Origin: Nitrospirota bacterium
GTDB taxonomy: Bacteria > Nitrospirota > Thermodesulfovibrionia > UBA6902
Length of the DNA stretch: 32,730 bases
Reading direction: 5' to 3'
Assembly (NCBI GenBank): GCA_024277515.1
Contig: JAJRVB010000311.1
Span: forward strand, 1 to 32,730
This document shows positions 833 to 30,048 of this stretch, in pieces. Numbering within the stretch: position 1 is the stretch's first letter; each line of letters starts with the position of its first letter. Under the pieces are notes generated by a model, which searched no databases, was not told the DNA's origin, and worked only from the letters and a program-made list of their open reading frames with translations. The translations under genes and the position numbers were made by a program.

Positions 833-922
833 TTATTGCCGCTTGAGTCCTGCGGGGAAACCTGTCCGGGAAGCTCTCAAAACTATCGTGTGAACAGACG
901 TTCTGTAAAGAAGGACTTTAGT

Positions 923-1675
923 ATGGATGACAAAGAGAGGGACCGGAACATGAGTGTGAAGACGGGAATCAGGAATTTTATTATGATGGGGGTCCTGCTC
1001 CTGCTTGCGGGATTCTGGCTGGGCAAGTCAAAAAACAGCGTCCCCGACATCAGAGAACTCGATTTTCCGAGCGCAACGGTATACGAGATCCCCGTCCCTC
1101 TTCCCCGCTTTTCACTGACTGATGACGGGGGACAGGAATTTAACGAATGGAATCTCTCCAGGAAGTGGACCTTCATGTTCTTTGGGTACACTTTTTGCCC
1201 TGATGTATGCCCTACGGCACTTGTTGACCTGAATGATGTATACAATAATCTTTTGGAAAAAGGGGACCTCATCGAGAAGAAATTCAAAGTCCCTACACAG
1301 TTTGTATTTGTGTCTGTTGATCCCGGGAGGGACACCCCGGAGGACCTGAAAGAGTACATGAATTATTTTAATGAGGAATTTATCGGGGTAACGGGTGCGT
1401 CCGGGATGATCGACAGACTGGCGAGGCCCATGGGTGCTGCGTACAGGCGTGTGCCGGGTACGGATGACGAGGGGGACTATTTCATTGACCACAGCGCATC
1501 TTTCCTTCTTATTGACCCGCTCGGCAGGCTGCGGGCTTCTTTCCCCCCTCCGCATGATCCGGGACAGATGGCTGATGACTTTCGTAATATCCGCAATGAA
1601 TTCACAGCTGAGTGCTGCCTGCCGTATCAGGATACCGAACAGGTCATTTTTGATTACAGAAAGGAGAAAAAATGA
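923..1675 (+). CDS. SCO1/SenC family copper chaperone (thioredoxin fold, membrane anchored)
   Basis: It has a CPDVCP (CxxxC) copper-binding motif, an N-terminal TM helix (FIMMGVLLLLAGFWLG) and a downstream DHS motif. The track ORF starts at TTG 836. ATG 923 or ATG 950 is a more plausible start. Confidence 0.8.
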   Translation: MDDKERDRNMSVKTGIRNFIMMGVLLLLAGFWLGKSKNSVPDIRELDFPSATVYEIPVPLPRFSLTDDGGQEFNEWNLSRKWTFMFFGYTFCPDVCPTALVDLNDVYNNLLEKGDLIEKKFKVPTQFVFVSVDPGRDTPEDLKEYMNYFNEEFIGVTGASGMIDRLARPMGAAYRRVPGTDDEGDYFIDHSASFLLIDPLGRLRASFPPPHDPGQMADDFRNIRNEFTAECCLPYQDTEQVIFDYRKEKK

Positions 1676-2130
1676 AAAAAATCCTGTTTTACATATCTGT
1701 TTTGCTTGTAAGTATCAGTGTTTCATCATCAGCAGCAGACTCAATCATGGTGCAGGATGCATGGGTGCGCTCAGCCCCTCCCAATGCAAAGGCCCTTGCA
1801 GCATATATGAAAATTATCAACACATCCGCTGAGCAGAGGGCGCTCATCAGTGCATCCAGCAGCCGGTTTGGCAGGGTGGAGATGCACAAATCCGAAATGC
1901 ATGAGGGGATTATGAAGATGATACCGCAAAAACAGCTGACGGTCCCGGCTGGAGGGTCATTATTGCTCAAGCCGATGAGTTATCATCTTATGCTGATGAA
2001 ACCGGTATCGGTCCCCCGGGAAGGGGACCTGGTGGATTTTGATCTGCGGTTTGACGATGGCACGGTATTACATCTCAGGGTCCCTGTCCGGGCAGCAAAA
2101 AGCGGGCGGATGATGAAAAGTCACGACTGA
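1672..2130 (+). CDS. periplasmic copper chaperone PCu(A)C (DUF461)
   Basis: It has a signal peptide and Met/His-rich Cu(I) motifs (MHKSEMHEGIMKM ... MSYHLMLM). Its start overlaps the Sco1 stop in an ATGA overlap, which implies translational coupling. Confidence 0.8.
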   Translation: MKKILFYISVLLVSISVSSSAADSIMVQDAWVRSAPPNAKALAAYMKIINTSAEQRALISASSSRFGRVEMHKSEMHEGIMKMIPQKQLTVPAGGSLLLKPMSYHLMLMKPVSVPREGDLVDFDLRFDDGTVLHLRVPVRAAKSGRMMKSHD

Positions 2131-3187: not shown

Positions 3188-3227
3188 TGTCAACAGTTAC
3201 TGTAAATACAAACAGTAACTGTTGACA
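3188..3227. terminator. perfect 16-bp inverted repeat (TGTCAACAGTTACTGT / ACAGTAACTGTTGACA, 8-nt loop) between convergent rnd and napD
   Basis: The arms were read directly at 3188-3203 and 3212-3227. The repeat ends 1 nt from the napD stop (3229-3231). On the plus strand a T-rich stretch follows (TCTATTTTG). No clear U-tract follows on the minus strand. Confidence 0.55.
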
Positions 3228-3228
3228 T

Positions 3229-3492
3229 CTATTTTGCCATCCGGTCAAGCGCCTCTGAAAGCTCGTCCTCGCAATACGAATATGCAAGGTTTGCATCGTA
3301 TACAAACGGCAGACCTTGTATCTGCTTCATTTTTTTCATCTGCTCCTCAATACTTTCGCCCTCTATGGTTACCACGATCTTTCCGTCGGCATCATTAAAA
3401 TGGACTTCACAGGAATCAACAGCGTTTATACTGTCGATGACTTCATGAAGATGCTCCGGTAATGTTTTAACAACGATGCTCGATACATTCAT
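3229..3492 (-). CDS. napD: NapD, Tat-signal-binding chaperone for NapA
   Basis: It is an 87-aa protein with the NapD pattern (IVV...VDSCEVHF...GKIVVTIEGES...I..I..LP.V....LAY). It is the last gene of the nap operon. Confidence 0.8.
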   Translation of the reverse strand: MNVSSIVVKTLPEHLHEVIDSINAVDSCEVHFNDADGKIVVTIEGESIEEQMKKMKQIQGLPFVYDANLAYSYCEDELSEALDRMAK

Positions 3493-3514
3493 AATGATAT
3501 TTCCTTTCCACTGA

Positions 3515-4069
3515 CTACTCTGTCTCTACCCCTTCGTTTAATATGTTAAGTAAATTTGAGCGGTACCGTCCCTGCTCATCCCTGAACTCACCCTTGAAGA
3601 TGTTTTCTACCGCAGGGGTCAGAATATTCTGGATAACATGACACTGCATACAGTTGAATCTGCTGCCGTCAAGTTTGCCCCTCAGGTATGCCCCGGTGTC
3701 CAGGTTAACAAGGTGGGACGTGGGTACCGGGGTCGCTCCGCTGAATACCGCTTCTTCAGGCATGTGGCATCCCATGCATATGTTGTCTTCCTCTATGGGA
3801 AGCATGCCGGTAATGTCATGTGCGATCAATGGAGGACTGTTTTCAAATGACCTCTCGAACCTGACACTTTCTCCCGGTTCTTTCTTTGTTGTCTCCCCGT
3901 GGGCGGGAACTGTCGTGCTCTCATCATAGAGTGTTTCGTGCCTGAGGCCGAGGTCCTCTTCGGAAAAGGTTTCTGTCCGGGTCTGGGGCTGGGCACACGA
4001 AAATAATATTCCTAAAGAGAGTGTCCCGGCCGTTAATAACAATAACCATGTCCTTCTGTTTCTTTCCAT
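3515..4069 (-). CDS. napB: NapB, dihaem cytochrome c subunit of periplasmic nitrate reductase
   Basis: It has a signal anchor, two CXXCH motifs (CMGCH, CMQCH) and the PPLIAH motif. The size and operon position fit NapB. Confidence 0.8.
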   Translation of the reverse strand: MERNRRTWLLLLTAGTLSLGILFSCAQPQTRTETFSEEDLGLRHETLYDESTTVPAHGETTKKEPGESVRFERSFENSPPLIAHDITGMLPIEEDNICMGCHMPEEAVFSGATPVPTSHLVNLDTGAYLRGKLDGSRFNCMQCHVIQNILTPAVENIFKGEFRDEQGRYRSNLLNILNEGVETE

Positions 4070-4072
4070 AAT

Positions 4073-4894
4073 TCATCCCTCCTTACATTTAGTATGAATT
4101 TTATTTGAATATATGTTTATGAAATTTACTGCGTCATCGTCACATACTTCAATGCATCTGCCGCAATTTACGCATTCTCCGGAGACCACGGCCCCGCTCT
4201 CCCTGCCTACCATATGCAGGACCTGTTTTTCAGGACAGATTTCTATGCATTTCATACATGAAGTACATTTTTCACGGTCATATCCTATCCGGAGAAAACC
4301 GAAACGGCCTATGATCGAGTAAAAGCCGCCGAGCGGACAGATGTGGCCGCAGAAGCCGTTTTTTACTGCAAACAGGTCGAACAGAAAAACCATGAGAACT
4401 AATGTCCAGCCAAAACCGAACCCGTATATAATCCCCCTGTGCAGGGCGCCGATCGGACTTATCCACTCAAAGGCCGCTACCCCGAGGATGACTGACAGTG
4501 CTACCGACAAGAAAATAATCCAGTAACGCGTCGCTCTTTTTATGTCCCACGACTTCCAGACGGAATCCAGACTGAAGAGTCTTCTGAGTCTGTTGGCAAG
4601 GTCTGTCACCATGTTTACCGGACATGCCCAGCTACAGAATACTCTCCCACCGAGGACAGCGTAAAAGAGCAGGATGACGAGCGCGCCTGTTACGGCATCG
4701 CTGGCAATGACGGCGCCTGCGGAAAAGCTTTGCAATACTGCAAAGGGGTCGGACAGCGGGATTGTATCGAAGACCCTCGCAGAACTAAGGTTTCCCCTCA
4801 GTACGCTCCAGCCGTATGCGTTTCCCCCGAAAAATACGAAAAGAATTCCTGTTTGCAGAAGCCTTCTCGGTATCTGGTATTTATATTTTCTCAT
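4073..4894 (-). CDS. napH: NapH, membrane quinol dehydrogenase ferredoxin subunit
   Basis: It has four predicted TM helices, CxxCP motifs (CSWACP, CGHICP) and two C-terminal 4Fe-4S motifs (CTSCMKCIEICP, CVNCGRCIEVC). Confidence 0.85.
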   Translation of the reverse strand: MRKYKYQIPRRLLQTGILFVFFGGNAYGWSVLRGNLSSARVFDTIPLSDPFAVLQSFSAGAVIASDAVTGALVILLFYAVLGGRVFCSWACPVNMVTDLANRLRRLFSLDSVWKSWDIKRATRYWIIFLSVALSVILGVAAFEWISPIGALHRGIIYGFGFGWTLVLMVFLFDLFAVKNGFCGHICPLGGFYSIIGRFGFLRIGYDREKCTSCMKCIEICPEKQVLHMVGRESGAVVSGECVNCGRCIEVCDDDAVNFINIYSNKIHTKCKEG

Positions 4895-4931
4895 ATCTAT
4901 CCTGCATGCAGGGGCAATTCATGAATTGCCC

Positions 4932-5714
4932 CTACAGTTCGTCATTCAGATAATCAAGGGCCTTCCGGCCGCTCCTGGGCGTCTGTGTAGTGACTTTTTC
5001 CGTTGCTTCCTTCATACGCTCTTCATCCTGTTCATCCCAGCCCTTTATATAGCGTTCGCTCGACTGACCCATCGCTATTTCCTTCGGCAGTACGAAAATT
5101 GATGCCTTCCGGGTAACACAGGCCCTTTCGCAGAGGCCGCATCCTGTACAGGCATCACTGTGAACAACGGGCGCCTGTATTGTATGTTTTCCTGTCCTGA
5201 CGTTTCTTGTGTATTCAACAGTGATCGCCTTGTCGATCAAAGGGCATGCACGGTAGCAGGCGTCACACTGAATACCTGCATATGCAATACAGATTTCCCG
5301 GTCAATGACGGCGATGCCCATTTTTGCCATGTTAATATTGAGCCTTAATTCACCATCTTCGCCTTTTTCACTGACGAGTGTTTTATCAAGGGATCCGGTG
5401 GGGCAGACTGGCACACAGGGAATGTCCCTGCACATATAACAGGGGTTTGTCCTCGGCGTGTAGTATGGGGTCCCTACCGGTTTGCTATCTCCCGGTTTTG
5501 CGAGGACCAGCGCGTCATAGGGACATGCCTCGACACACATCCCGCATTTTATGCAGGAGGCAAGAAAATCTTTTTCCGGCAATGCACCGGGTGGCCGCAA
5601 TATCAGCGGTGCGGACCTGCCTTCCTCTATAAAGCCGCTCCAGGCAAGTCCGCCTGTAGCAGCCAGCCCCAGGCTCTTGAAGGTCTTCAGCAGAAATTCT
5701 CTACGTTCAGGCAT
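4932..5714 (-). CDS. napG: NapG, Tat-exported poly-ferredoxin
   Basis: It has a twin-arginine signal (MPERREFLLKTFKSLGLAATGG) and four Cys clusters of 4Fe-4S type. A GAGGTGAGG Shine-Dalgarno precedes ATG 5714, so the longer track ORF (to 5804) is probably an over-extension. Confidence 0.85.
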   Translation of the reverse strand: MPERREFLLKTFKSLGLAATGGLAWSGFIEEGRSAPLILRPPGALPEKDFLASCIKCGMCVEACPYDALVLAKPGDSKPVGTPYYTPRTNPCYMCRDIPCVPVCPTGSLDKTLVSEKGEDGELRLNINMAKMGIAVIDREICIAYAGIQCDACYRACPLIDKAITVEYTRNVRTGKHTIQAPVVHSDACTGCGLCERACVTRKASIFVLPKEIAMGQSSERYIKGWDEQDEERMKEATEKVTTQTPRSGRKALDYLNDEL

Positions 5715-5825
5715 CCTCACCTCATTCTTTTGCGTTTTCTTTTCATGCATCTCAGTAACATTAACTTTATTCCTTAGCCATGTAGTTGGTAGATAGCAGC
5801 ACATAGTTAGGGGAAAAGTCCCATA

Positions 5826-5867
5826 CTACTTGCTACTGACTACTGTCTACTGACTTCTGTCTACTTC
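5826..5867 (-). repeat. six phased heptamers (plus strand CTACTNN; sense strand NNAGTAG) in the napA-napG spacer
   Basis: CTACT occurs at 5826, 5833, 5840, 5847 and 5861, with a degenerate CTTCT at 5854, giving a strict 7-nt period. The array begins 13 nt after the napA stop codon. Confidence 0.6.
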
Positions 5868-5879
5868 TTTTTTCCTTCC

Positions 5880-8654
5880 TCATGCTTTATAAACCTTTAC
5901 CGCGCATTTCTTGAAATCCGTCTCTTTTGACATGGGACATGTTGCATCAAGAGTTACTTTATTGATCAGGACACGTTCGTCAAACCAGGGTACGAAGATC
6001 AAACCTTTCGGAGGGCTGTTTCTCCCTCTGGTATTGATCCTTGACTTGACCTTTCCGCGCCTTGATTCTATCCATATCAGCTGGCCGTCTCTAAACCCGT
6101 TTGATTCCGCGTCGTTCGGGTGCATGAAGCATACAGCCTCCGGAGCTGCCCGGTAGAGTTCAGGCACGCGCATGGTCATCGTACCGCTGTGCCAGTGCTC
6201 CAGCACCCTCCCGGTACAGAGCCACAACGGATATTCACTGCTGGGTATTTCCGCAGCTTCGGCGTAATGTCTGAGGAATATCTTTGCCTTGTTCGGGAGC
6301 TTGAGTTTTTCCAGCTCCTTCCTGGGTCCCTTCAGGTCCCCCTGTGCTATGGCCTTCAATGCCTTGCCGTAAAAAGCGAACTGTCCGGTGTTTGCCTTTC
6401 GTGCATAAGGATCGTAGTCTGCATTAAATCTCCATGGGGTTTCCTTGCCGTTTACAACGGGCCATTTCAGACCCCTGACCTTATGGTAGGTGTCGAAATC
6501 CGCAAGATCATGTCCGTTGCCGATACCGAACTTCCTGTATTCTCCCCACAAATATTTCTGAATGAAAAAACCGTAGCCCTTGAAGCCCTCAACGTCCCTC
6601 TTGTCTCCGGCTGCTTCACTATTCAAAAATCCTTTTCCTACAGGGTCAGGCCATTTATATGATTTTGCCTCCTTGTTGGCGTACAGGACGTCATATAATG
6701 TGTCCGTGTCCTTATATCCCATTGCCCTTGCCTTGGCCATAACATCTGGAAGGGTAACCTTGTCATTGATCTTATGGGCCTTCCAGACTTCGGCCAGTGT
6801 AAACCTCTTCGAAAATTCCACGGTCTGCCAGGTGTCTGACATTGCTTTCCCGACAGGTGTGACCTGCTGTCTCCAGTGCTGGGTCCTGCGCTCGGCATTA
6901 CCATAGGCCCCCCATTTTTCGAATATCATGGCAGTGGGGAGGATCAGGTCCGCAACCTTTGCGGAAATCCCGGGATATACCTCTGACACCACGATAAAGT
7001 TGTCCATTTCCCTTGCCGCCTTGATCCAGTGGTTCATATTTGCCGTATTCTGCCAGGGATTGCATACCTGTACCCATGCCCACTTGATCTTTCCGTCTTC
7101 AAGGTCTCTCATTATTTTTGTATAGTGTGAGCCCACGACCGGATTGAGTGTGCCTTCAGGCAGTTTCCAGAGCTTTTCAGATTTTTTTCTGTGTTTTGGA
7201 TTGAATACGACCATATCCGACGGGAGTCTGTGCGCGAATGTCCCGACTTCCCTTGCTGTCCCGCACGCGCTCGGCTGGCCGGTGAGGCTGAACGGACTGT
7301 TGCCCGGCTGCGCAATCTTGCCGAGCAGGAGATGTACCATATACATCTGTTCATTGACCCATGAACCCCTCACATGCTGGTTAAATCCCATGGTCCAGAA
7401 ACTGCTCACCTTTCTGTCTTTGGCCACGTAGTATTCAACAAGTTTTTTCAGCTTGTCCTTAAACTCTGAGAGGGACTCGTCAGAGTCTCCCTTGGCAAGT
7501 TCAGCGACAAAATCCAGGGTGTAAGGCTCAAGCCCCTTTTTGAAATCATCAAAGCTGATCGCCCAGTGCTTGACCGGTTTCTTTGTATTTTTCATCCGGA
7601 GCGTGGAACCGGCCTTTATACCGAGGGAGCTCCATGCATGGGCTTCTTCTTTGGTTACTGTTTTGGATGCTTCCCTGGCTGCCGTATCGAGCTCGCCCGG
7701 TCTGTATTTTGGATGATCAATCCTGGAACGCATTCCATAACCAATATCTACAGGGCCTGTCGCGAATACACAGTACCTGTCAACGAAATCCTGGTCTATA
7801 GCTTCAGGCCGGTTGTATACTATTTCCCTGGCTATATAATTAAGGAGCGCGAGATCGGTGTTAGGTTTAATAATGATTTCAATGTCCGATATGTTGGAGC
7901 ATCTGTTTCTGAATGTGGATATATTGACCAGCTTTACCCAGTCCGGTCTGCTCAGTTTCCTGTCTGTAATTTTTGACCATAATACGGGATGCATCTCCGC
8001 CATATTGGCGCCCCAGAGGACGATTGAATCGGCAAAATGCATATCATCATAGTTGCCTGCAGGTTCATCTATGCCGAATGTCTGTATAAACCCTACCACA
8101 GCGCTTGCCATGCAGTGGCGGGCATTCGGATCAATATTATTGCTTCTGAACCCCCCCTTAACGAGTTTTACCGCGGCTACCCCTTCCTGGACTGTATATT
8201 GACCTGACCCGAAGACCGATATGCCTTTCGGTCCCAGTTCAGAGTAATACTTTTTGAACTGATTTGCCATTTCATCGAAGGCCCGTTCCCATGTGACCGG
8301 TCTGAATTTACCGTTTTTATCGAACTCACCCGCATCGTTTACCCTTAAAAGAGGATCGGTCAGCCTGTCTGCGCCGTACATGATCTTTGCATTAAAATAT
8401 CCCTTTATACAGTTTAACCCCATGTTTACGGGTGCAAGCGGATCACCTTTTACCGCAACGATCATATCATTTCTGGTTGCGATCATGATGCCGCATCCGG
8501 TACCGCAAAACCTGCATACCGCCTTGTCCCATCGCCAATCTGCCTGTGTCTCGGCTGCAACAGCCTTTAAATTATCCGGCACGGACAGTCCGATAGCTGT
8601 TGCGGCGCTTACTGCAGCCGTGGTTTTCAGAAAGTCCCTTCTTGACACTTTCAT
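5880..8654 (-). CDS. napA: NapA, periplasmic nitrate reductase catalytic subunit (Mo-bisMGD, 4Fe-4S)
   Basis: It has a Tat signal ([22 protein letters not shown]) and the N-terminal CRFCGTGC 4Fe-4S motif. The 924-aa long form is followed by napGHBD. A GGAGGG RBS precedes the ATG. Confidence 0.95.
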
Positions 8655-8794
8655 AGTTTCCCTCCTTTGTAATTATGTTCATTCATTAAATGTTTCGGAA
8701 TATATTTTATAACTGCCCGGTTATTTTTTTCTGCATCAATGTTTGCGGGGTGGGGGACCATTACCTTCATGTCTTCAAACATAACAATATTTCC

Positions 8795-8832
8795 TGTAAA
8801 TATGATGTTAATGTGTGTAAAGAAAATGTTAA
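8795..8832 (-). promoter_or_regulatory. candidate response-regulator operator upstream of napA: four TGTWAA hexamers at 11/10/11-bp spacing
   Basis: The plus strand reads TGTAAATATGATGTTAATGTGTGTAAAGAAAATGTTAA. It consists of two 21-bp tandem units (16/21 identical). It matches the reverse complement of 11410-11447 at 34/38 positions. It lies 140 nt upstream of the napA ATG in the napA/kinase divergent region. Confidence 0.6.
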
Positions 8833-9029
8833 TTTTCAGGGATGCGCAAAATAACGAAAAAATATCATGAAACAATTATTGCACGGCCGGGGGCGAATGC
8901 ATAGATCATTAATACGATTATAAACAATACTTATAATTAAGCTGCCATGCCGCTGTTACCCGGACTTTTGCATTCCTTATGGATTTGACTTGGAGAGAAG
9001 CAGATTCTAAAATCTCTATTAAGGATAAT

Positions 9030-10688
9030 ATGAATACAATAAAGTCACTGCTAAGACAATTCAGGGCCCTCCCGATCAGCCTCAGTCTCAAGTTTGTTAT
9101 CGGCGTTGCCGTCGCATTGTCCATAGTGATGGGAATATCACTCTATTTTATTAATGAGAACCATGAAAGGCTTGTCATGAAACAGGTCGATATTCAGGCT
9201 AAGGCCCTGTTCCAGCAGATTGTCCTCACCCGCAAATGGATTGCGGACCATGGCGGTATTTTTGTGGAACAGGCCCCCTGGAAGACGCCGAGTCCTTATA
9301 TTACTGAACCGGAAATTGTTGATCTGCAGGGAAGAAAATATATGAAGCTGACACCGGCCATGGTCACAAAGGAACTCTCAACATATGCAAAGGAGAAAGG
9401 GCTCTATTCGTTTCATATTACAAGCCTTAAGCTCATTAATCCTGAAAATGCACCGGATGACTTTGAAAGGGCCGCCCTTAAGGAATTCGAGATGAAGGTG
9501 ACAAAAGAAACGAGCAGGGTTGAAGAAAAAGGGCCTGATTATTTTTACAGATATATAGCGCCTCTTTATATTGAAGAAGCCTGCCTCAAGTGTCACGCCC
9601 ATCAGGGCTACAAGATCGGAGATGTAAGAGGGGCAATCAGTGTTTCCGTCCCGATGAACTCCGCGCTCCTGATGATCCGCTCCGGAAAGAGGGGGCTGAT
9701 TCTTACGAGCGGTCTGACAATAGGAGTTCTGATGATCGTGCTTTATGTGATGATGAAAGAGCTTGTATTGAGACCGGTCCATGAGTTGAAGAACTCTATC
9801 AAGGGTTTTTCACGCGGCAAAATATCTCATACGGATTTTATCAACACAGGAGATGAACTGCAGGAGTTGAGCAACTCATTTGCTGAAATGTCACAAACGC
9901 TGACTAATTATCATTCTGACCTCGAAAACAGGGTCCATATGGCGACTGCCGGGCTTGAAAAGGCGAATGAACGGCTTACGGAACTGAACGAAAAGAAGTC
10001 TGATTTTATCGCGCAGATTTCGCATGAATTGAGAACGCCGATGACATCTATCAAGGGCGCAATGGACTATATTTCAGCAAAGATCGCGCGGGATGGAAAC
10101 GATGCTGACGACCTGATGGAGTTTCTGGATGTCATTAAAAATAATGCGGACAGGCTCATCAGAATGGTCAACGATACCCTCGATCTTGAACGCATAGAAT
10201 CCGGAATGTTTGACCTGCATTATGACCATTTCGACCTGCTCTCTCTTGTAAAAGAGGTGATAATAAGTTTTCAGACCATTACGAATGAACGGAATATTGT
10301 GTTTAACATAAAGGCGCGTTCCGATATTATCGTGAATGCTGATCAGGACAGGATTAGGCAGGTACTGATAAATCTGGTGTCGAATGCGATCAATTACAGC
10401 CCTGATAATGCTGATGTTCAAATTACCGTTACGGAAACAGGTGACAGCGTGAAGGTAACCCTTAAAGACGAGGGGCCGGGTATCCCTGCTGATGTACAGG
10501 AAAAAATATTTGATAAATTCTATACAATAGGCAAGAGATACGGGACAGGGCTGGGACTCGCGATATGCAGGGGCATCATTGAAGCACACAGGGGAGTGAT
10601 CCGGGTTGAGAACATTCCGGGACACAAAGGGAGCGCTATTTATTTCAGTATTCCCAAAAACGGCGGGGCAAAAGATAACGGTGATTAA
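9030..10688 (+). CDS. sensor histidine kinase with extracytoplasmic haem-c (CXXCH) sensor domain, HAMP, HisKA, HATPase
   Basis: There are two TM segments flanking a ~200-aa domain that ends in CLKCHAHQGYKIGDVRGAISVSVP (from memory, a DUF3365-like domain). The H-box is HELRTPMTSI, with N/G boxes further on (NAINYS, DEGPGI, GTGLGL). An AAGGA RBS precedes ATG 9030. Confidence 0.8.
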   Translation: MNTIKSLLRQFRALPISLSLKFVIGVAVALSIVMGISLYFINENHERLVMKQVDIQAKALFQQIVLTRKWIADHGGIFVEQAPWKTPSPYITEPEIVDLQGRKYMKLTPAMVTKELSTYAKEKGLYSFHITSLKLINPENAPDDFERAALKEFEMKVTKETSRVEEKGPDYFYRYIAPLYIEEACLKCHAHQGYKIGDVRGAISVSVPMNSALLMIRSGKRGLILTSGLTIGVLMIVLYVMMKELVLRPVHELKNSIKGFSRGKISHTDFINTGDELQELSNSFAEMSQTLTNYHSDLENRVHMATAGLEKANERLTELNEKKSDFIAQISHELRTPMTSIKGAMDYISAKIARDGNDADDLMEFLDVIKNNADRLIRMVNDTLDLERIESGMFDLHYDHFDLLSLVKEVIISFQTITNERNIVFNIKARSDIIVNADQDRIRQVLINLVSNAINYSPDNADVQITVTETGDSVKVTLKDEGPGIPADVQEKIFDKFYTIGKRYGTGLGLAICRGIIEAHRGVIRVENIPGHKGSAIYFSIPKNGGAKDNGD

Positions 10689-10699
10689 AAGGAGAAACT

Positions 10700-11383
10700 T
10701 TGAACAACAGGATACTGGCAGTAGATGATGATAAAGATATACTGAAAGTCCTGAAGGCAAACCTCGAACTTCACGGGTATGATGTGTATACGGCGGAGAA
10801 CTGGACAGAAGGACGGGAATCGTTGTCTGTATACATGCCTGACCTTATCATTCTTGATGTTATGCTGCCTGACGGAGATGGGACCGAGATCTGTCGTGAC
10901 GTCAGGAAAGAGATGCCTGATATCCCCATAATTATGCTGACTGCGAAAGACAAGGTCTCAGATAAAGTGTTCGGACTCGAGAGCGGCGCTGATGATTATG
11001 TGGTAAAACCGTTTGAGACACTTGAACTGGTTGCCCGGATCAAGGCGTGTCTTCGCAGGGTGCCTGTACCGGCTGCTGAAGACAAGGTGACCATAGGGGC
11101 ACTGAAAGTCGACTGCAGAAAGCGGCTTGTATCCGTATCAGGGAAACAGGTTGCGCTCACCCCCAAGGAATACGACCTGCTCTGCTTTTTTATAAATCAC
11201 CGGGGGGAAGCGGTAAGCCGTGACTCGATCAGAAAAAATATCTGGAAGGGCTCGCATATCTATTCATGGAGCAGAGTGATAGATGTTCATATTCAGCATC
11301 TCAGGCAAAAAATTGAAAAAGACCCCTCAAATCCCCGATATATCTTAACGGTGCCCGGTGCGGGTTACCGGTTTGCCGACTGA
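10700..11383 (+). CDS. OmpR/PhoB-family response regulator (receiver + winged helix)
   Basis: The receiver domain shows DDDKD...D(54-like)VMLPDGDG...K, and the C-terminal winged helix ends in LTVPGAGYRF. The start is TTG, preceded by AAGGAGAAAC. Confidence 0.9.
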   Translation: MNNRILAVDDDKDILKVLKANLELHGYDVYTAENWTEGRESLSVYMPDLIILDVMLPDGDGTEICRDVRKEMPDIPIIMLTAKDKVSDKVFGLESGADDYVVKPFETLELVARIKACLRRVPVPAAEDKVTIGALKVDCRKRLVSVSGKQVALTPKEYDLLCFFINHRGEAVSRDSIRKNIWKGSHIYSWSRVIDVHIQHLRQKIEKDPSNPRYILTVPGAGYRFAD

Positions 11384-11409
11384 CGATATTACTTTCTACT
11401 CTCAAGGTC

Positions 11410-11447
11410 TTTACATCTTCTTTACACACATTAACAGCACATTTACA
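11410..11447 (+). promoter_or_regulatory. second copy of the four-hexamer operator, upstream of the NapD-like/HAO-like operon
   Basis: The plus strand reads TTTACATCTTCTTTACACACATTAACAGCACATTTACA. Its reverse complement is 34/38 identical to 8795-8832. It lies 116 nt upstream of ATG 11564 and has the same orientation relative to its operon as the nap copy. Confidence 0.6.
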
Positions 11448-11563
11448 AAGAAATCTGATAAAAAATAATTAGTATTGCGGTATCGAAAATTATCCGGTTT
11501 CATCCCGATACATCGGGACATTTTTCTAACTGCATTACCCTGATTAATGGAAATGGGGAGAGC

Positions 11564-11839
11564 ATGGTAGTTGCAAGCGGAATTATCGAGATAGAAGACA
11601 TGAATGATCTGCAGAACATTGTTGCTGCTTTAAAAAATAACAGGGTGGAAATCAATGATATTGATTCAGCAAACATTCTATTTATTCTCGAGAGAGAAAA
11701 TATCGGTGAAGTAAAGGGTGAGATAGAGTCTGTAAAACAGATAGCGGGAGTTAAACATGTGCATATCACATATTACAGCATGGAGGGCATGGATGACGGG
11801 ACAGAACCAGGGGGCAGCGAGAAAGAAAGCAGCAGGTGA
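11564..11839 (+). CDS. NapD-like small protein (paralogue of the napD at 3229-3492)
   Basis: This 91-aa protein shares the hydrophobic/acidic pattern of NapD (IIEIED...VEIND...ILFILERENI...I..I..I.GV.HV.I.YY). The GGGGAGAG RBS fits. The assignment is by eye only. Confidence 0.45.
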   Translation: MVVASGIIEIEDMNDLQNIVAALKNNRVEINDIDSANILFILERENIGEVKGEIESVKQIAGVKHVHITYYSMEGMDDGTEPGGSEKESSR

Positions 11840-11961
11840 AAGGAGGAAAGCAAAAAAGGAAGACCAAGTATATTTTCAAGAGGAGGTGATGCATTTTTAA
11901 GGGCGTGATGACGTATTTGTATTGAGAAGATCAAGGTTTCAGAAAATAAAGGAGGGGAAAA

Positions 11962-13422
11962 ATGAAAAAAATGATAACCCTGGCAATTGCCGCCTGTATC
12001 CTGGCACTGGGAACAAGCGCATATGCCATCACAAAGATCAACATCCCGAAAGACGTGTCAAAGACCAGCCAGGAATGCATTGAGTGCCACAAAGCGACAA
12101 CGGTCAACATTTACCAGCAATGGGGCAACAGTAAACATTTTCGCGCCAATGTCGGGTGTTATGAATGCCACGAGGCCAAGAAGGGCGAGTCGGATGCATT
12201 TGAACACGAAGGTAAATTCATTTCCATTATTGTATCTCCGAAGGATTGCGCAAGATGCCATGAGAGGGAAGTTGATGAATTTACCAATTCACATCATGCC
12301 AAGGCAGGAAGGATCATGGGATCTCTGGACAATATTCTTGCTGAGGTTGTCGAAGGCAACAGGGGCATGATAACAGAGGCTTTCCCCCGCGGTGTTTCTG
12401 CTGCTGCAGTCAACGGTTGCTGGCAGTGCCACGGCTCTGTTGTGAAAGTCAATAAAGACGGGAGGCTTGACCCGGCCACCTGGCCTAACACCGGTATGGG
12501 AAGGGTAAACCCCGACGGTTCGGAGGGTAGCTGTACAGCATGTCACCAGCGCCATGAATTCTCGGCTGCACAGGTCCGCCAGCCGGGGAACTGTGGTAAA
12601 TGCCATCAGGGGCCGGACCATCCACAATATGAGATATATAAACTTTCAAAGCATGGAATTAGCTATTTCGCCAACATGGATGATATGAACCTCGATTCTC
12701 CCAAATGGATTGTTGGAGAAGATTATTCTATAGCGCCTACATGTGCAACCTGCCATATGTCGGCTACCAGTGATATGCCTGTCACTCACAACGTGGGTCT
12801 GCGTATCAAGTGGAACAACCGTCCGCCGCGGATTAAACAGGCCCACGAGACGGATAAGAGGTGGGGACTGGCCTCCGCCAAAATTACAGGCGACATGCGT
12901 AAGGCAAACATGGTCAAGGTCTGTGTCAACTGTCACGGCGAAAAATTTGTGGAAGGCTTTTACATTCAGTATGAAGCCCAGCTGCAACTCTACGATAAGA
13001 AATGGGCAGAACCCGGCTTAAGGCTCTATAAAAAGGCTACAGAAGTTCTAAAGGCCATGCAGGGCAAAGAATACGCCAAGTTTTCCCAGAAGATTGACTA
13101 TACATGGTTTGAGCTCTGGCACCATGAGGGTCGAATTGTTCGCCATGCAGCATCCATGATGGGACCGGATTATACACAATGGGAGGGCAACTATATCTTA
13201 GCCAAAAACTGGTATAGCGAGTATATTCCGGAGTTAAAAGAAATCATCGAAGAGGCCAAGCACAGTAATCGTAAGGCCAAAAAGCTTGGAGGCGAATTAG
13301 AGAAGATGCTCACTGAGATTACGAATAATGACGATCACAAGTGGTCCATCGGTAAAGAAGATGCCGCAGTTAAAGCAGATCGTAAGAAACGCCAAAAAGA
13401 GTTTAAAGCTCGTTATAAATAG
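11962..13422 (+). CDS. octahaem cytochrome c, hydroxylamine oxidoreductase (HAO/epsilon-Hao-like) family
   Basis: It has a Sec signal peptide (ALGTSAYA) and eight CXXCH motifs (CIECH, CYECH, CARCH, CWQCH, CTACH, CGKCH, CATCH, CVNCH). The block GRVNPDGSEGSCTACHQRHEFS...CGKCHQGPDHPQYEIYKLSKHG and the WHHEG motif recall HAO-family proteins. A strong AAGGAGGGG RBS precedes the start. Confidence 0.65.
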   Translation: MKKMITLAIAACILALGTSAYAITKINIPKDVSKTSQECIECHKATTVNIYQQWGNSKHFRANVGCYECHEAKKGESDAFEHEGKFISIIVSPKDCARCHEREVDEFTNSHHAKAGRIMGSLDNILAEVVEGNRGMITEAFPRGVSAAAVNGCWQCHGSVVKVNKDGRLDPATWPNTGMGRVNPDGSEGSCTACHQRHEFSAAQVRQPGNCGKCHQGPDHPQYEIYKLSKHGISYFANMDDMNLDSPKWIVGEDYSIAPTCATCHMSATSDMPVTHNVGLRIKWNNRPPRIKQAHETDKRWGLASAKITGDMRKANMVKVCVNCHGEKFVEGFYIQYEAQLQLYDKKWAEPGLRLYKKATEVLKAMQGKEYAKFSQKIDYTWFELWHHEGRIVRHAASMMGPDYTQWEGNYILAKNWYSEYIPELKEIIEEAKHSNRKAKKLGGELEKMLTEITNNDDHKWSIGKEDAAVKADRKKRQKEFKARYK

Positions 13423-16257: not shown

Positions 16258-16509
16258 ATGAAGAGAAAAATATGTGCGATCGGCAACAGCAAAGGAATAT
16301 CAATCCCTGTTGATGTACTGGAGGAGCTTAATCTTGCTTTAGGGTCTGATGTAGACATCAAGCTGGATGACAAGCATTCACGCATAGTGATTGAACCGAT
16401 CAGGAAAGAGAGAAAATACCCCAAGGGAGTGGACCAGGAATTTGTTACACAGGTGAATGATTTTATAGAAAAATATGGACCTGCATTAAAAGAGATAGCA
16501 AAGAAGTGA
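16258..16509 (+). CDS. AbrB/MazE/SpoVT-type antitoxin (Phd-role partner of Doc)
   Basis: The N-terminus (AIGNSKGISIPVDVLEELNL..GSDVDI) has the swapped-hairpin AbrB pattern. Its stop overlaps the doc start in a GTGA overlap. Confidence 0.8.
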   Translation: MKRKICAIGNSKGISIPVDVLEELNLALGSDVDIKLDDKHSRIVIEPIRKERKYPKGVDQEFVTQVNDFIEKYGPALKEIAKK

Positions 16510-16889
16510 GGTATCTGTCAGCGGAACAGGTGCTGTTTATTCACAGCAGGCTCATAGACACGACCGGCGGATCACACGGTGTGAGGGACACAGGACTTTT
16601 GCAATCTGCTGTTGAAAGACCGAAATCAACATTTGAAGGCAAAGGTCTGTATCCGGATATATTTCACAAAGCTGCAGCGCTCATGGAATCCCTCACTAAC
16701 AATCATCCGTTTATTGACGGCAACAAAAGGACTGCCATAACAAGTTCCGCCCTGTTTCTCCGCTTCAATGGATTCTTTCTCAATACCTCACAGGAAAAAT
16801 TAGAGAAATTCGCGGTCCGGATGGCAACGGACAACGCATCATTTCAAGATGCTGTTGAATGGTTTAAGAAAAACTCGGATAAAATATAA
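16506..16889 (+). CDS. doc: Doc (death-on-curing) Fic-domain toxin
   Basis: It carries the Fic/Doc motif HPFIDGNKRTA. The N-terminus reads YLSAEQVLFIH, and the 127-aa size fits. Confidence 0.9.
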   Translation: MRYLSAEQVLFIHSRLIDTTGGSHGVRDTGLLQSAVERPKSTFEGKGLYPDIFHKAAALMESLTNNHPFIDGNKRTAITSSALFLRFNGFFLNTSQEKLEKFAVRMATDNASFQDAVEWFKKNSDKI

Positions 16890-17602: not shown

Positions 17603-17610
17603 CGTTGAGT

Positions 17611-29565: not shown

Positions 29566-30048
29566 TTACCCTGCAAGATCATCATGGTCTGTACTTGTGA
29601 TAATATCATGCCATTCTTTAATTTCTTTCTCCATTGTTTCTATCTTTTGTCTGTAAACATTAAGAGTGTCTTTACCTAACATTAGGTGTACCGGGGGGTG
29701 ATTGGAGTTGGCAAGCATTATAAACGCCTGAGACAGTTTTTCAGCACTTCCTGGCTGCTTCTTGTTAACCAGCGGCATTTGACTCCGCATTTCTCCGGCA
29801 GTTTCAGCATAATCTGCAATAATATTCTTGGAAGTTGTCAAAGAAGAACTATCCAAAAAATCTGTTCTGAAAAAACCAGGCTCGACTGCAGTGGCATGAA
29901 TACCTAATGGTGCCAGCTCTGACGCCATAGATTCAGTAATGCCCTCCACTGCAAATTTAGTTGAACAGTACAATCCCCATCCAGTAAACCCTGCTAATCC
30001 GCCAACCGAAGAAAGGTTTATGATATGACCGGATCGCTGTTTACGCAT
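29566..30048 (-). pseudogene. short-chain dehydrogenase/reductase lacking its N-terminal Rossmann segment
   Basis: The ORF begins at ...LPHMRKQRSGHIINLSSVGG, and the catalytic YCSTK motif is present. The ~100-aa TGxxxGxG N-terminus is missing. Only 51 nt separate the ORF from the upstream AraC stop. Confidence 0.6.

What the first reader, a model, noticed from the sequence alone, without database searches (positions are those of the whole stretch)
3229..13422. Compact candidate nitrate-to-ammonium island: napAGHBD without napC, a haem-sensor two-component system, a NapD paralogue and an octahaem HAO-family cytochrome
Seen in sequence: a complete napA-G-H-B-D operon on the minus strand, a divergent kinase/regulator pair, and then a NapD-like ORF plus an 8xCXXCH, Sec-exported 486-aa cytochrome on the plus strand. 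No napC, nrfA/nrfH, nirS or nirK is present in the window.

Established knowledge: NapGH-type quinol dehydrogenases replace NapC in epsilonproteobacterial-type nap clusters. HAO-family octahaem enzymes that lack the tyrosine cross-link have been characterised as nitrite/hydroxylamine reductases in Epsilonproteobacteria that lack NrfA.

Inference: this locus could encode a self-contained Nap plus reductive-HAO ammonification route under local control. The electron donor to the HAO-like protein is not evident, because no NrfH/NapC-type tetrahaem partner lies next to it. That gap is the unusual part.
Basis: partly seen in the sequence, partly recalled or inferred. Interest (0 to 1): 0.65.

Follow-up and report, generated by a model that had tools for sequence, protein, structure and literature searches.

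The report
Co-regulated nitrate-to-ammonium gene island
A Nitrospirota (Thermodesulfovibrionia) contig carries a periplasmic nitrate reductase operon and a reductive-type eight-haem HAO-family enzyme that share one conserved operator next to a haem-containing sensor kinase and regulator, so it is a plausible, locally switched nitrate-to-ammonium pathway of a known kind with a new regulatory layer.

Summary
These are napAGHBD (minus strand), a divergent histidine kinase/OmpR-type regulator pair, a small NapD-like ORF, and a 486-aa Sec-exported 8xCXXCH cytochrome.

- **The cytochrome:** it is HAO-family by Pfam, PDB sequence search and Foldseek, not OTR, ONR or MccA. The position aligned to the cross-linking Tyr467 of Nitrosomonas HAO is Gln, and none of the six commonest residues at that column in 174 relatives is Tyr. 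The catalytic Asp-His pair is kept.
- **Source:** a Thermodesulfovibrionia bacterium.
- **nap-hao linkage:** it recurs in several phyla, including cable bacteria, where DNRA has been reported.
- **No partner cytochrome:** none lies next to hao anywhere in this clade. About 30 more distant relatives carry a tetrahaem-NrfC-NrfD-hao operon.
- **New result:** a 37-nt array of four TT(T/A)ACA hexamers occurs exactly twice in the window, upstream of napA and upstream of napD-like/hao. It is conserved at those positions in 16 of the 17 closest loci (including the window), with no off-target hit in 1.4 Mb.
- **Sensor:** the kinase's periplasmic domain is the haem-c Cache (DUF3365/Tll0287) type recently reported to bind NO.

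Verdict: a new variant of the known Nap + reductive-HAO ammonification module. Enzyme activity, signal and electron donor remain inferred.

The parts
3188..3227 (.). 16-bp-stem inverted repeat just beyond the napD stop; a likely terminator of the nap operon (inference)
3229..3492 (-). napD, Tat-proofreading chaperone for NapA
   Evidence: Pfam NapD 91.4 bits against a cut-off of 28
3515..4069 (-). napB, dihaem cytochrome c subunit (CMGCH, CMQCH)
   Evidence: Pfam NapB 94 bits; translation; motif scan
4073..4894 (-). napH, membrane FeS subunit of the NapGH quinol dehydrogenase
   Evidence: NCBIfam NapH equivalog 361 bits against 234
4932..5804 (-). napG, periplasmic poly-ferredoxin with a Tat motif (RREFL); the real start is probably Met31, near 5714
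   Evidence: NCBIfam NapG equivalog 346 bits against 269, with the alignment starting at residue 26; translation
5880..8654 (-). napA, Mo-bisMGD catalytic subunit, 924 aa, Tat signal, strong AAGGAGGG ribosome-binding site
   Evidence: NCBIfam NapA 1393 bits against 904; Pfam TAT_signal; sequence
8795..8832 (-). Operator array 1: TTAACA-N5-TTTACA-N4-TTAACA-N5-TTTACA, 142 bp upstream of the napA start and oriented with nap; it lies in the shared nap/kinase divergent promoter region
8979..10688 (+). Sensor histidine kinase: TM, periplasmic haem-c Cache domain (Tll0287-like/DUF3365, CLKCH), TM, HAMP, HisKA, HATPase
   Evidence: domain family described as NO-binding in bioRxiv 10.64898/2026.02.01.703092
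10700..11383 (+). OmpR/PhoB-type response regulator; presumed binder of the arrays (inference)
   Evidence: Pfam Response_reg and Trans_reg_C; kinase and regulator found only in the clade that has the arrays
11410..11447 (+). Operator array 2: TTTACA-N5-TTTACA-N4-TTAACA-N5-TTTACA, 117 bp upstream of the NapD-like start and 515 bp upstream of hao. A conserved CTGnTAnA block (11455-11462) follows and is positioned like an extended -10 (inference)
11564..11839 (+). NapD-like small ORF (91 aa) with a ferredoxin-like beta-alpha-beta-beta-alpha-beta fold; role unknown
   Evidence: Pfam NapD E=7.7e-4, below cut-off; a positionally conserved small ORF (76-92 aa) at this position in the window and 10 related loci; 10 of the 13 aligned sequences (12 NapD-like ORFs plus the window's own napD) match Pfam NapD; AF2 pLDDT 82, and Foldseek gives generic ACT/NikR/NapD-like hits with NapD 2JSX at rank 5
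11962..13422 (+). haoA-like octahaem cytochrome c of the HAO family: no cross-linking Tyr (Gln406), Asp219-His220 kept, Sec signal peptide

Best explanation
The locus is a two-operon regulon for periplasmic reduction of nitrate to ammonium in an anaerobic Thermodesulfovibrionia (Nitrospirota) bacterium.

- **Nitrate step:** NapAB reduces nitrate to nitrite, with electrons taken from menaquinol by NapGH (no NapC).
- **Nitrite step:** the secreted HAO-family octahaem protein lacks the tyrosine cross-link that makes HAO an oxidase. It reduces nitrite, and probably NO and hydroxylamine, to ammonium, as described for epsilon-Hao and IhOCC.
- **Control:** the adjacent two-component system switches both transcription units. 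Its kinase carries a periplasmic c-haem Cache domain, a type reported to bind NO. It phosphorylates the OmpR-type regulator, which binds arrays of four TT(T/A)ACA direct repeats (11-10-11 bp phasing) placed over the -35 region of the nap promoter and of the napD-like/hao promoter.
- **Electron supply to HAO:** it has no quinol dehydrogenase of its own in this clade. The most economical supply is the co-induced NapGH/NapB branch or an unlinked periplasmic cytochrome.

Shown here: gene identities, absence of the cross-link Tyr, recurrent nap-hao synteny, and the shared, phylogenetically conserved operator.

Inferred: the enzyme's product, the regulator-operator pairing, the signal, and the electron donor.
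For: - **Gene identities:**
- **HAO family and nothing else:** Pfam PF13447 at 105 bits; PDB sequence hits 4QO5 at 1e-48 and 1FGJ at 4.5e-20; AF2 model with pLDDT 90, and Foldseek ranks 1-11 all HAO family.
- **No cross-link Tyr:** the profile alignment places NeHAO Tyr467 (PGGWTYTEG) on window Gln406 (PD-YTQWEG). In 174 full-length relatives that column is Q106/H36/W9, with no Tyr among the six commonest residues, and D219-H220 are conserved.
- **Recurrent nap linkage:** the window's arrangement recurs in L004, L008, L012, L014 and L024. There is a napDAGHB-(F)-hao single operon in L009 and in Ca. Electronema L028. Linkage is also seen in Electrothrix L023/L027/L029, Calditrichota L031, L049, L076 and Nannocystaceae L065.
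- **Cable-bacteria precedent:** the relative in Ca. Electrothrix YB6 (63% identical, L029) is described as the periplasmic octahaem cytochrome proposed for DNRA (PMC12093952).
- **Operator in the window:** the 30-nt core occurs exactly twice, upstream of napA and of napD-like/hao, against 0.00 expected. The three-hexamer pattern also occurs only there.
- **Operator in relatives:** the four-hexamer array gives 30 hits in the 17 closest loci. Every hit lies 126-211 bp upstream of napA, 194-707 bp upstream of hao, or before the napD-...-hao operon. The other 67 loci (1.13 Mb) give 1 hit, and that one is also upstream of hao. The array is the only alignable block in otherwise diverged intergenic DNA.
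- **Kinase/regulator pair:** it is conserved immediately upstream of hao even where nap is not adjacent, and it is absent from the clades that lack the array.
- **Sensor domain:** the family was shown to bind NO when fused to signalling modules.
Against: - No biochemical or transcript data exist for this protein or this clade.
- A Tyr-less HAO from anammox bacteria (Kustc0458, PDB 6H5L, also a hit) is reported to make NO rather than ammonium (my own knowledge of that literature).
- Some close relatives have the kinase/regulator pair and hao without an adjacent nap (L005, L043). The magnetotactic Nitrospirota have hao alone, next to ammonium transporters. So hao does not strictly need a linked nap.
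- The regulator-operator pairing rests on adjacency, co-occurrence and repeat geometry only.
- No interaction between NapGH or NapB and an HAO-type enzyme has been described.
- The rest of the genome is unknown and might hold nrfHA, haoC or a dedicated donor.
Confidence: 0.6

Rival explanations
1. The HAO-like protein is mainly a nitrosative-stress defence. It removes NO, hydroxylamine or excess nitrite made by Nap or by neighbouring organisms. The NO-sensing kinase induces it for detoxification, and it does not work as an energy-conserving terminal reductase.
For: - The sensor domain family binds NO.
- The kinase/regulator pair and hao occur without an adjacent nap in L005 and L043.
- No dedicated quinol dehydrogenase lies beside hao in this clade. 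The PVC-type relatives, by contrast, have a full tetrahaem-NrfC-NrfD module, as expected for a respiratory enzyme.
Against: - The same operator also controls the respiratory nap operon.
- hao sits inside nap operons in L009 and in cable bacteria, where DNRA has been reported.
- Detoxification and respiration are not exclusive; NrfA does both (my own knowledge).
Confidence: 0.2
2. The enzyme is an NO-forming nitrite reductase, like the anammox HAO-like Kustc0457/0458 complex. In that case Nap plus HAO feed a denitrification-type or NO-dependent pathway rather than ammonification.
For: - It lacks the Tyr cross-link, as Kustc0458 does.
- Kustc0458 (6H5L) is a clear sequence and fold hit: profile E=2.2e-45 and Foldseek 1.9e-11.
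- An NO-binding sensor sits next door.
Against: - The best solved relative by a wide margin is IhOCC (4QO5, 1e-48 against 6.4e-17 for 6H5L), which is reported to form ammonium (my own knowledge).
- No Kustc0457-like partner subunit is adjacent.
- No nor or nos genes are in the window.
- In magnetotactic Nitrospirota, hao lies next to two amt genes and glnB, which suggests ammonium as the product.
- Cable bacteria with a 63-66% identical enzyme are reported to perform DNRA.
Confidence: 0.1
3. The gene is a genuine oxidative hydroxylamine oxidoreductase, a remnant of 'incomplete nitrification', as hao genes of magnetotactic Nitrospirota have been annotated.
For: Database names such as 'hydroxylamine oxidoreductase' or 'hydroxylamine dehydrogenase', and the interpretation given for Ca. 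Magnetocorallium in PMC10278575.
Against: - There is no cross-linking Tyr.
- No amo, and no c554 or cM552 partners, are present.
- The gene is linked to, and shares an operator with, a nitrate reductase.
Confidence: 0.03
4. The shared hexamer array is bound by some other regulator encoded elsewhere. The neighbouring kinase/regulator pair then controls something else, or only itself.
For: - Loci L009, L011, L013 and L025 have arrays but no kinase/regulator pair within the sequence available.
- No binding data exist.
Against: - Four direct repeats with 10-11 bp phasing overlapping the -35 region are the classic architecture for OmpR/PhoB-type regulators (established knowledge).
- Array and kinase/regulator pair are confined to the same clade: 12 of the 17 closest loci have the pair adjacent, and none of the 67 other loci has a matching kinase/regulator pair next to hao.
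- The regulator gene ends 27 bp before array 2.
Confidence: 0.15

Closest known systems
Epsilon-Hao / reverse-HURM pathway of Campylobacterota (Nautilia profundicola, Campylobacter fetus/curvus; Hanson et al. 2013, PMC3701875; Haase et al. 2017, cited in PMC10949509)
   Same: - A NapC-less NapAB-GH nitrate reductase combined with a Tyr-less HAO-family octahaem protein that serves as nitrite/hydroxylamine reductase in organisms that usually lack NrfA.
- nap and hao are co-induced by nitrate in Nautilia.
   Different: - There, HaoA is paired with a NapC/NrfH/cM552-type tetrahaem quinol dehydrogenase (HaoC/CycB). None is present here or anywhere in this clade.
- The phylum differs.
- No haem-Cache two-component system or hexamer operator is described for those systems.
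- Placement of this protein relative to the epsilon-Hao clade could not be tested, because no reference sequences were available.
Cable-bacteria nap operon plus periplasmic octahaem cytochrome c (Ca. Electronema/Electrothrix; PMC12093952, citing Marzocchi et al. 2022)
   Same: - The octahaem protein is 63-66% identical (L023, L027-L029).
- It is linked to napDAGHB.
- It has no NapC/NrfH partner.
   Different: - In Electronema, hao is the last gene of the nap operon. Here the two are divergent units joined by a shared operator and a two-component system.
- No NapD-like second copy, and no kinase/regulator pair, is found in the cable-bacteria loci.
IhOCC, octahaem cytochrome c of Ignicoccus hospitalis (PDB 4QO5)
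   Same: - It is the closest solved structure: phmmer 1e-48, profile 5e-87, Foldseek 7.9e-20, TM 0.67.
- It lacks the cross-link Tyr.
- It is reported as a nitrite/hydroxylamine reductase (my own knowledge).
   Different: It is archaeal, only about 27% identical over the structural alignment, and sits in a different genomic context.
Tetrahaem-NrfC-NrfD-hao operons of PVC and other phyla (seen here in about 30 of the 83 fetched loci)
   Same: The HAO subfamily is the same, at 57-64% identity.
   Different: Those loci encode a dedicated NrfCD-type quinol dehydrogenase and a tetrahaem carrier immediately upstream of hao. This locus has none.
sCache_heme (DUF3365/Tll0287-like) sensors (bioRxiv 10.64898/2026.02.01.703092)
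   Same: A periplasmic Cache domain with a CXXCH insertion, fused to HAMP and a histidine kinase.
   Different: A term search of that preprint found no mention of nitrate, nitrite or gene neighbourhoods, so it appears to assign no regulon or physiological target. Here the kinase is tied to nap and hao by synteny and a conserved operator.
PhoB/OmpR class II promoters (pho box)
   Same: Tandem direct repeats with 10-11 bp periodicity that replace the -35 element and end about 11 bp before a -10-like block.
   Different: The repeat sequence TT(T/A)ACA and the target genes differ, and binding has not been tested.
NrfHA / NrfABCD cytochrome c nitrite reductase
   Same: It performs the same proposed step, periplasmic six-electron reduction of nitrite to ammonium.
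   Different: NrfA is a pentahaem enzyme with a CXXCK active-site haem. It gives only a marginal fold match (Foldseek E=0.2), and no CXXCK motif is present.

Membership tests
Periplasmic nitrate reductase, NapC-independent NapAB-GH type | NapA Mo-bisMGD catalytic subunit with a Tat signal | tested here: met
   NCBIfam NF010055 at 1393 bits against 904; Pfam TAT_signal
Periplasmic nitrate reductase, NapC-independent NapAB-GH type | Dihaem NapB, NapG/NapH quinol dehydrogenase and NapD chaperone in one operon | tested here: met
   Pfam NapB 94 bits; NapG 346 against 269; NapH 361 against 234; NapD 91 against 28
Periplasmic nitrate reductase, NapC-independent NapAB-GH type | No NapC/NirT tetrahaem subunit | tested here: met
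   No tetrahaem ORF in the 32.7-kb contig. The rest of the genome is unavailable.
HAO family of octahaem cytochromes c (PF13447) | Eight CXXCH motifs in the family's order, and a family HMM score above the cut-off | tested here: met
   8 CXXCH; PF13447 at 105 bits against 21.9; all eight motifs are invariant in the 21-sequence alignment
HAO family of octahaem cytochromes c (PF13447) | HAO fold | tested here: met
   AF2 pLDDT 90; Foldseek ranks 1-11 are IhOCC, NeHAO, Kustc0458, HOX and HDH
HAO family of octahaem cytochromes c (PF13447) | Distal Asp-His pair at the catalytic haem | tested here: met
   GPDHPQYE aligns to NeHAO GVDHNNWE; D219 is present in 156 and H220 in 151 of 174 relatives
Oxidative HAO/HOX/HDH (P460 enzymes) | Cross-linking tyrosine (NeHAO Tyr467) that forms the P460 chromophore | tested here: not met
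   The aligned residue is Gln406. The family column is Q106/H36/W9, with no Tyr among the six commonest residues.
Epsilon-Hao (HaoCA) sensu Haase et al. 2017 | HAO-family protein without the cross-link Tyr | tested here: met
Epsilon-Hao (HaoCA) sensu Haase et al. 2017 | Adjacent haoC encoding a NapC/NrfH-type tetrahaem quinol dehydrogenase | tested here: not met
   In the 17 closest loci there is no NapC/NrfH-type tetrahaem gene within 4 kb of hao. The only multihaem ORFs found are NapB-like (L009), a c554-like fusion (L013) and the MccSep-like gene (L006). None is in the window.
Epsilon-Hao (HaoCA) sensu Haase et al. 2017 | Phylogenetic grouping with the Campylobacterota enzymes | not tested
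   No Campylobacterota reference sequence could be obtained with the tools. The named cluster members were Planctomycetota and Desulfobacterales.
Epsilon-Hao (HaoCA) sensu Haase et al. 2017 | Nitrite and hydroxylamine reduction to ammonium, with negligible hydroxylamine oxidation | not testable with these tools
   Needs purified protein
ONR / TaNiR octahaem nitrite reductases | CXXCK active-site haem motif | tested here: not met
   No CXXCK. ONR gives only a weak partial profile hit at E=7e-7 over about 80 residues.
OTR / MccA | Sequence or fold similarity to these families | tested here: not met
   OTR is absent from the PDB sequence and Foldseek hit lists. MccA gives only E=1.7e-5 over 32 residues.
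sCache_heme (DUF3365/Tll0287-like) sensor kinases | Extracytoplasmic PF11845 domain with a conserved CXXCH, fused to signalling modules | tested here: met
   PF11845 at 83.8 bits against 24.1, residues 66-225 between two hydrophobic segments; CLKCH; HAMP, HisKA and HATPase
sCache_heme (DUF3365/Tll0287-like) sensor kinases | NO binding by the haem | not testable with these tools
   Reported for a Pseudomonas azotoformans member only
NapD (PF03927), for the small ORF 11564-11839 | Family HMM above the cut-off | tested here: inconclusive
   20 bits against a cut-off of 28 for the window ORF. 10 of the 13 aligned sequences (which include the window's genuine napD) hit NapD at E<=0.01. The fold is ferredoxin-like but generic: NikR-C and ACT rank above NapD 2JSX.
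NapD (PF03927), for the small ORF 11564-11839 | Binds the Tat signal peptide of a Mo-enzyme | not testable with these tools
   HAO itself has a Sec-type signal peptide, so it is not an expected client

The most novel reading that the evidence does not exclude
The haem-c Cache kinase and its OmpR-type partner form a periplasmic NO/N-oxide sensor that directly switches on a nap + napD-like + hao regulon through the four-hexamer arrays. This would be the first physiological regulon for this large sensor family.

In addition, in this clade the HAO-type reductase has no quinol dehydrogenase of its own. It would draw electrons from the co-induced NapGH/NapB, giving a branched chain in which one quinol dehydrogenase serves two terminal N-oxide reductases.
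Probability: 0.3. Interest if true: 0.7.

Novelty: new variant of a known kind. Interest (0 to 1): 0.5.

Why it matters
- **Mis-scored genes:** HAO-like genes of anaerobic Nitrospirota are usually annotated as hydroxylamine oxidoreductase and read as 'incomplete nitrification'. If they are Nap-coupled ammonifying reductases, a widespread subsurface and sediment clade contributes to nitrogen retention (DNRA) without nrfA, the marker gene used in surveys.
- **A test for a sensor family:** the conserved operator gives a concrete, cheap experiment for a sensor family (haem-c Cache) that so far has biochemistry but no assigned regulon.
- **The electron-donor question:** comparison across relatives shows three different ways of wiring the same enzyme to the quinone pool. 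These are HaoC (from the literature), tetrahaem-NrfCD (seen here), and no dedicated partner where the enzyme is linked to NapGH (this clade and cable bacteria). This turns the open electron-donor question into a testable one.

Tried and rejected
- **The 5-haem ORF as HAO's missing partner:** rejected. It is a homologue of the multihaem selenoprotein MccSep and is syntenic only in L006.
- **A c554-like tetrahaem fusion protein directly upstream of napD-like/hao in L013:** it is not related to the window's 5-haem ORF and is absent from the other loci, so it is not a general partner.
- **HAO as a lipoprotein (Cys12 in an IAAC-like box):** rejected. The Cys is not universal in close homologues, whereas the AxA site followed by TKINIPKE is.
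- **ORF 8651-8875(-), overlapping the napA start:** rejected as spurious. It has no homologue in any related locus and it covers the operator and promoter.
- **The hairpin with a T-run at 11503-11518, between array 2 and the NapD-like start:** it is not conserved in the orthologous intergenic regions. It is left as a possible weak terminator of the regulator gene or an attenuator.
- **TaNiR of Trichlorobacter ammonificans as the closest relative:** rejected. That enzyme has a CXXCK haem and this one does not.
- **Word-indexed homologue search with the NapD-like ORF:** it returned only itself.
- **Reference sequences for Campylobacterota epsilon-Hao:** could not be obtained.
- **Papers not held:** Marzocchi 2022 and Kjeldsen 2019.
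- **Literature search for nap/hao in Thermodesulfovibrionia:** it found nothing specific.

Full report
**Observation**

On the minus strand:
- napA 5880-8654: NapA equivalog 1393 bits against a cut-off of 904, with a Tat signal.
- napG 4932-5804: 346 bits against 269. The Tat motif RREFL suggests the true start is Met31.
- napH 4073-4894: 361 bits against 234.
- napB 3515-4069: two CXXCH.
- napD 3229-3492: Pfam 91 bits.
- A 16-bp-stem hairpin follows at 3188-3227.

Divergently, on the plus strand:
- A histidine kinase, 8979-10688.
- An OmpR-type regulator, 10700-11383.
- A 91-aa ORF, 11564-11839, that hits Pfam NapD only weakly (E=7.7e-4, below the cut-off).
- A 486-aa protein, 11962-13422, with eight CXXCH, no CXXCK, and a signal peptide whose AxA cleavage site is conserved in homologues.

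A six-frame motif scan shows no NapC/NrfH-type tetrahaem protein and no CXXCK (NrfA/ONR-type) protein. None of the Pfam-scanned ORFs is NirS or NirK. The window is the entire contig, so nothing can be said about the rest of the genome.

**What the cytochrome is**

Pfam places it in the HAO family (PF13447, 105 bits).

- Against all PDB sequences, the best hit is the Ignicoccus octahaem cytochrome IhOCC (4QO5, 1e-48). Next come Nitrosomonas HAO (4.5e-20), the Kuenenia reducing HAO-like Kustc0458 (6H5L), HOX and hydrazine dehydrogenase.
- An AlphaFold model built on 21 diverse relatives (pLDDT 90) gives Foldseek ranks 1-11 that are all HAO-family structures. NrfA appears only at E=0.2, and OTR, ONR and MccA do not appear.

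The cross-link test used a profile of the family, which aligns through the C-terminal domain of Nitrosomonas HAO. The tool prints only the consensus and match lines. The eight identical positions in that block agree with the NeHAO sequence ...[27 protein letters not shown]..., which I supplied from memory. This puts chain residue 467 (the cross-linking Tyr) on the window's Gln406, with PD-YTQWEG facing PGGWTYTEG. The nearby Tyr404 corresponds to NeHAO Trp465 and is a conserved aromatic residue.

In an alignment of 174 full-length relatives, this column is Gln in 106, His in 36 and Trp in 9, with no Tyr among the six commonest residues. The distal Asp-His pair (GPDHPQYE, D219-H220) is conserved. 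The protein therefore belongs to the Tyr-less, presumably reductive part of the HAO family.

**Where it comes from and how common it is**

The closest proteins (74-79% identical) come from Thermodesulfovibrionia/Nitrospirota MAGs from groundwater, the deep subsurface and sediments. The family is very large:
- 7443 hits among the 8000 candidates scored in the 90% clusters.
- 1685 clusters at 50% identity, 247 of them at E<=1e-30.

At 57-66% identity it occurs in cable bacteria, Calditrichota, Neomarinimicrobiota, Verrucomicrobiota, Planctomycetota (including Scalindua) and others.

**Synteny**

I searched the window's proteins against the 83 fetched loci with tblastn.

- The window's exact arrangement recurs in L004, L008, L012, L014 and L024. 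That arrangement is napDBHGA leftward, then kinase, regulator, small ORF and hao rightward, followed by a phospholipase C-like gene and scpB.
- In L001/L045 three unrelated genes separate nap from the kinase.
- L005 and L043 have the kinase/regulator pair and hao, but no nap within 10 kb.
- Outside the clade, hao is the last gene of a napDAGHB(-F) operon in L009 and in Ca. Electronema (L028).
- hao also lies next to nap in Electrothrix (L023, L027, L029), a Calditrichota MAG (napAGHBFLD-porin-hao), L049, L076 and a Nannocystaceae MAG (L065).
- L029 is Ca. Electrothrix YB6. [quoted passage not shown]

Repeated, independent nap-hao linkage across phyla is good comparative evidence that the two enzymes work in one pathway.

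**The missing electron donor**

I counted haem motifs in every ORF within 4 kb of hao in all loci.

- In the Thermodesulfovibrionia and cable-bacteria loci there is no NapC/NrfH-type or other dedicated partner. The only neighbours with haem motifs are NapB (L009, L028), a c554-like fusion (L013) and the MccSep-like gene (L006).
- In about 30 of the more distant loci, hao is the fourth gene of a conserved operon: a tetrahaem cytochrome, an NrfC-like FeS protein, an NrfD-like membrane protein, then hao.
- Together with the HaoC (NapC/NrfH-type) partner described for Campylobacterota (PMC3701875; Haase et al. 2017, from my own knowledge), this makes three ways of wiring the same enzyme.

That NapGH or NapB also feeds HAO is an inference and nothing more.

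**Regulation (new result)**

Just after the regulator's stop codon, the sequence reads TTTACA-tcttc-TTTACA-caca-TTAACA-gcaca-TTTACA (11410-11447, plus strand). Upstream of napA, on the nap strand, it reads TTAACA-ttttc-TTTACA-caca-TTAACA-tcata-TTTACA (8795-8832, minus strand).

- The 30-nt core TTCTTTACACACATTAACAnCAnATTTACA occurs exactly twice in the window, with 0.00 matches expected.
- The two- and three-hexamer patterns occur nowhere else in the window.
- Across the 17 loci with at least 74% HAO identity (274 kb), the four-hexamer array with up to 3 substitutions gives 30 hits.
- Every one of these hits lies in one of three places: 126-211 bp upstream of napA on the nap strand; 194-707 bp upstream of hao (before the small ORF, directly before hao, or both); or, in L009, before napD of the napD-...-hao operon.
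- In the other 67 loci (1.13 Mb) there is one hit, and it also lies 289 bp upstream of hao, in a magnetotactic Nitrospirota MAG.
- In an alignment of six orthologous regulator-to-small-ORF spacers, the array is the only conserved block. A conserved CTGnTAnA follows 8 bp downstream and is positioned like an extended -10.

Four direct repeats with 11-10-11 bp phasing that overlap the -35 region are the classic layout of PhoB/OmpR-type activators (established knowledge). The kinase/regulator pair is found only in the clade that has the arrays.

I conclude that nap and napD-like/hao form one regulon (shown at the level of a shared, conserved cis-element). The neighbouring regulator most likely binds it (inferred).

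**The sensor**

The kinase's periplasmic domain (residues about 60-235, between two hydrophobic segments) is Tll0287-like/DUF3365 with a CLKCH motif. A 2026 preprint redefines this family as haem-c Cache domains (sCache_heme). It reports that members fused to signalling modules behave as NO sensors, not O2 sensors. A term search of the preprint found no mention of nitrate, nitrite or gene neighbourhoods. NO, or a related N-oxide or redox signal, acting as the cue that switches on nap and hao is therefore plausible but inferred.

**The NapD-like ORF**

- A small ORF of 76-92 aa occupies the same position in the window and 10 related loci.
- There are two sequence subtypes. One has a more canonical NapD-like C-terminal motif (AYHHFE).
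- 10 of the 13 aligned sequences match Pfam NapD at E<=0.01; the set includes the window's genuine napD.
- A single-sequence AlphaFold model (pLDDT 82) has the beta-alpha-beta-beta-alpha-beta topology. Foldseek returns generic ferredoxin-like/ACT folds, with E. coli NapD (2JSX) at rank 5.
- It has its own operator array, and several loci carry a second array between it and hao. In the window only the first array is present, so hao is probably co-transcribed with it.
- In L006 its closest relative sits in a second, divergent Mo-enzyme-NapG-NapH-NapD cluster.

HAO has a Sec-type signal, so it is not an expected NapD client. The simplest reading is an extra Tat-proofreading chaperone for NapA or another Mo-enzyme within the same regulon. 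An ACT-like regulatory role cannot be excluded.

**Comparison and novelty**

The concept of Nap plus a Tyr-less HAO as an NrfA-independent route to ammonium is known from Campylobacterota and is proposed for cable bacteria. In the held literature I found no description of this module in Thermodesulfovibrionia. A paper on a magnetotactic Nitrospirota genome reads its hao genes as incomplete nitrification.

What differs here:
- No HaoC-type or NrfCD-type partner.
- A haem-Cache two-component system.
- A conserved operator joining the two operons.
- A second NapD-like gene.

I rate it a new variant of a known kind, of moderate interest. Its main value is a directly testable regulon for a sensor family with no assigned function, and a sharper form of the electron-donor question.

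**Limits**

- There are no activity, binding or expression data.
- The product (ammonium or NO), the signal and the donor are inferred.
- The genome beyond the contig is unknown.
- Placement relative to the characterised epsilon-Hao proteins was not tested, for lack of reference sequences.

Noticed in passing
window 17608-18936 (-): A Sec-exported 5-haem cytochrome ORF ends at an in-frame TGA (17956-17958) after '...HSGHGLPNG', and the frame stays open for another 115 codons. The read-through protein matches the solved 'multiheme cytochrome c selenoprotein' MccSep (PDB 9wt8/9wt9, E=1e-36), and the TGA aligns exactly with its Sec325. This is therefore very likely a selenocysteine-containing multihaem cytochrome that ordinary ORF calling splits in two. 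A hairpin lies about 20 nt downstream of the TGA, but its stability is not above that of shuffled sequence (z=-0.44). An orthologue (69%) lies near hao in L006 only.
   Followed up: partly
L046-L083 (for example L048 6961-11419): In about 30 more distant relatives (PVC superphylum, Hydrogenedentota, Scalindua, Nannocystaceae and others), hao is the last gene of a conserved operon: tetrahaem cytochrome c, NrfC-like 4Fe-4S protein, NrfD-like membrane protein, then hao. This looks like a dedicated quinol dehydrogenase module, different from the HaoC described for Campylobacterota.
   Followed up: partly
L002 10001-16359 and L003: In magnetotactic Nitrospirota, the hao homologue (66%) stands alone after an HD-domain protein and is followed by two ammonium transporter genes and glnB (P-II). 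This fits ammonium, or hydroxylamine taken up through Amt, as the product.
   Followed up: no
L006 1-4808: Upstream of the kinase/regulator/hao unit lies a second, divergent Nap-like cluster. It holds a Mo-enzyme (only its last 126 residues are 44% identical to NapA), NapG-like (Tat signal), NapH-like, the NapD-like subtype found in the window, and a radical-SAM/SPASM protein.
   Followed up: partly
L013 520-1860: A 446-aa lipoprotein-like ORF with a C-terminal c554-like tetrahaem domain lies between napA and the napD-like/hao unit, in place of the two-component system. It is unrelated to the window's 5-haem ORF. It might be a clade-specific redox partner.
   Followed up: partly
window 11503-11518 (+): A short GC-rich hairpin followed by a T-run lies between operator array 2 and the NapD-like start codon. 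It could be a weak terminator of the regulator gene or a leader attenuator. It is not conserved in orthologous spacers.
   Followed up: partly
window 836-2130 (+): Sco1/SenC and PCu(A)C copper-chaperone genes sit just beyond the nap operon. They suggest a copper enzyme (for example a haem-copper oxidase or NosZ) elsewhere in the genome.
   Followed up: no
window 8651-8875 (-): A 74-aa TTG-start ORF overlaps the napA start (ATGA overlap) and covers the nap operator and promoter. It has no homologue in any related locus and is probably not a gene.
   Followed up: yes
window 29566-30048 (-): A 160-aa ORF matches only the C-terminal third of the short-chain dehydrogenase profile (positions 123-190 of 195), so it is possibly a truncated gene. 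Fic/Doc (16506-16889) and HicB (30839-31168) toxin-antitoxin-type genes are also present.
   Followed up: no
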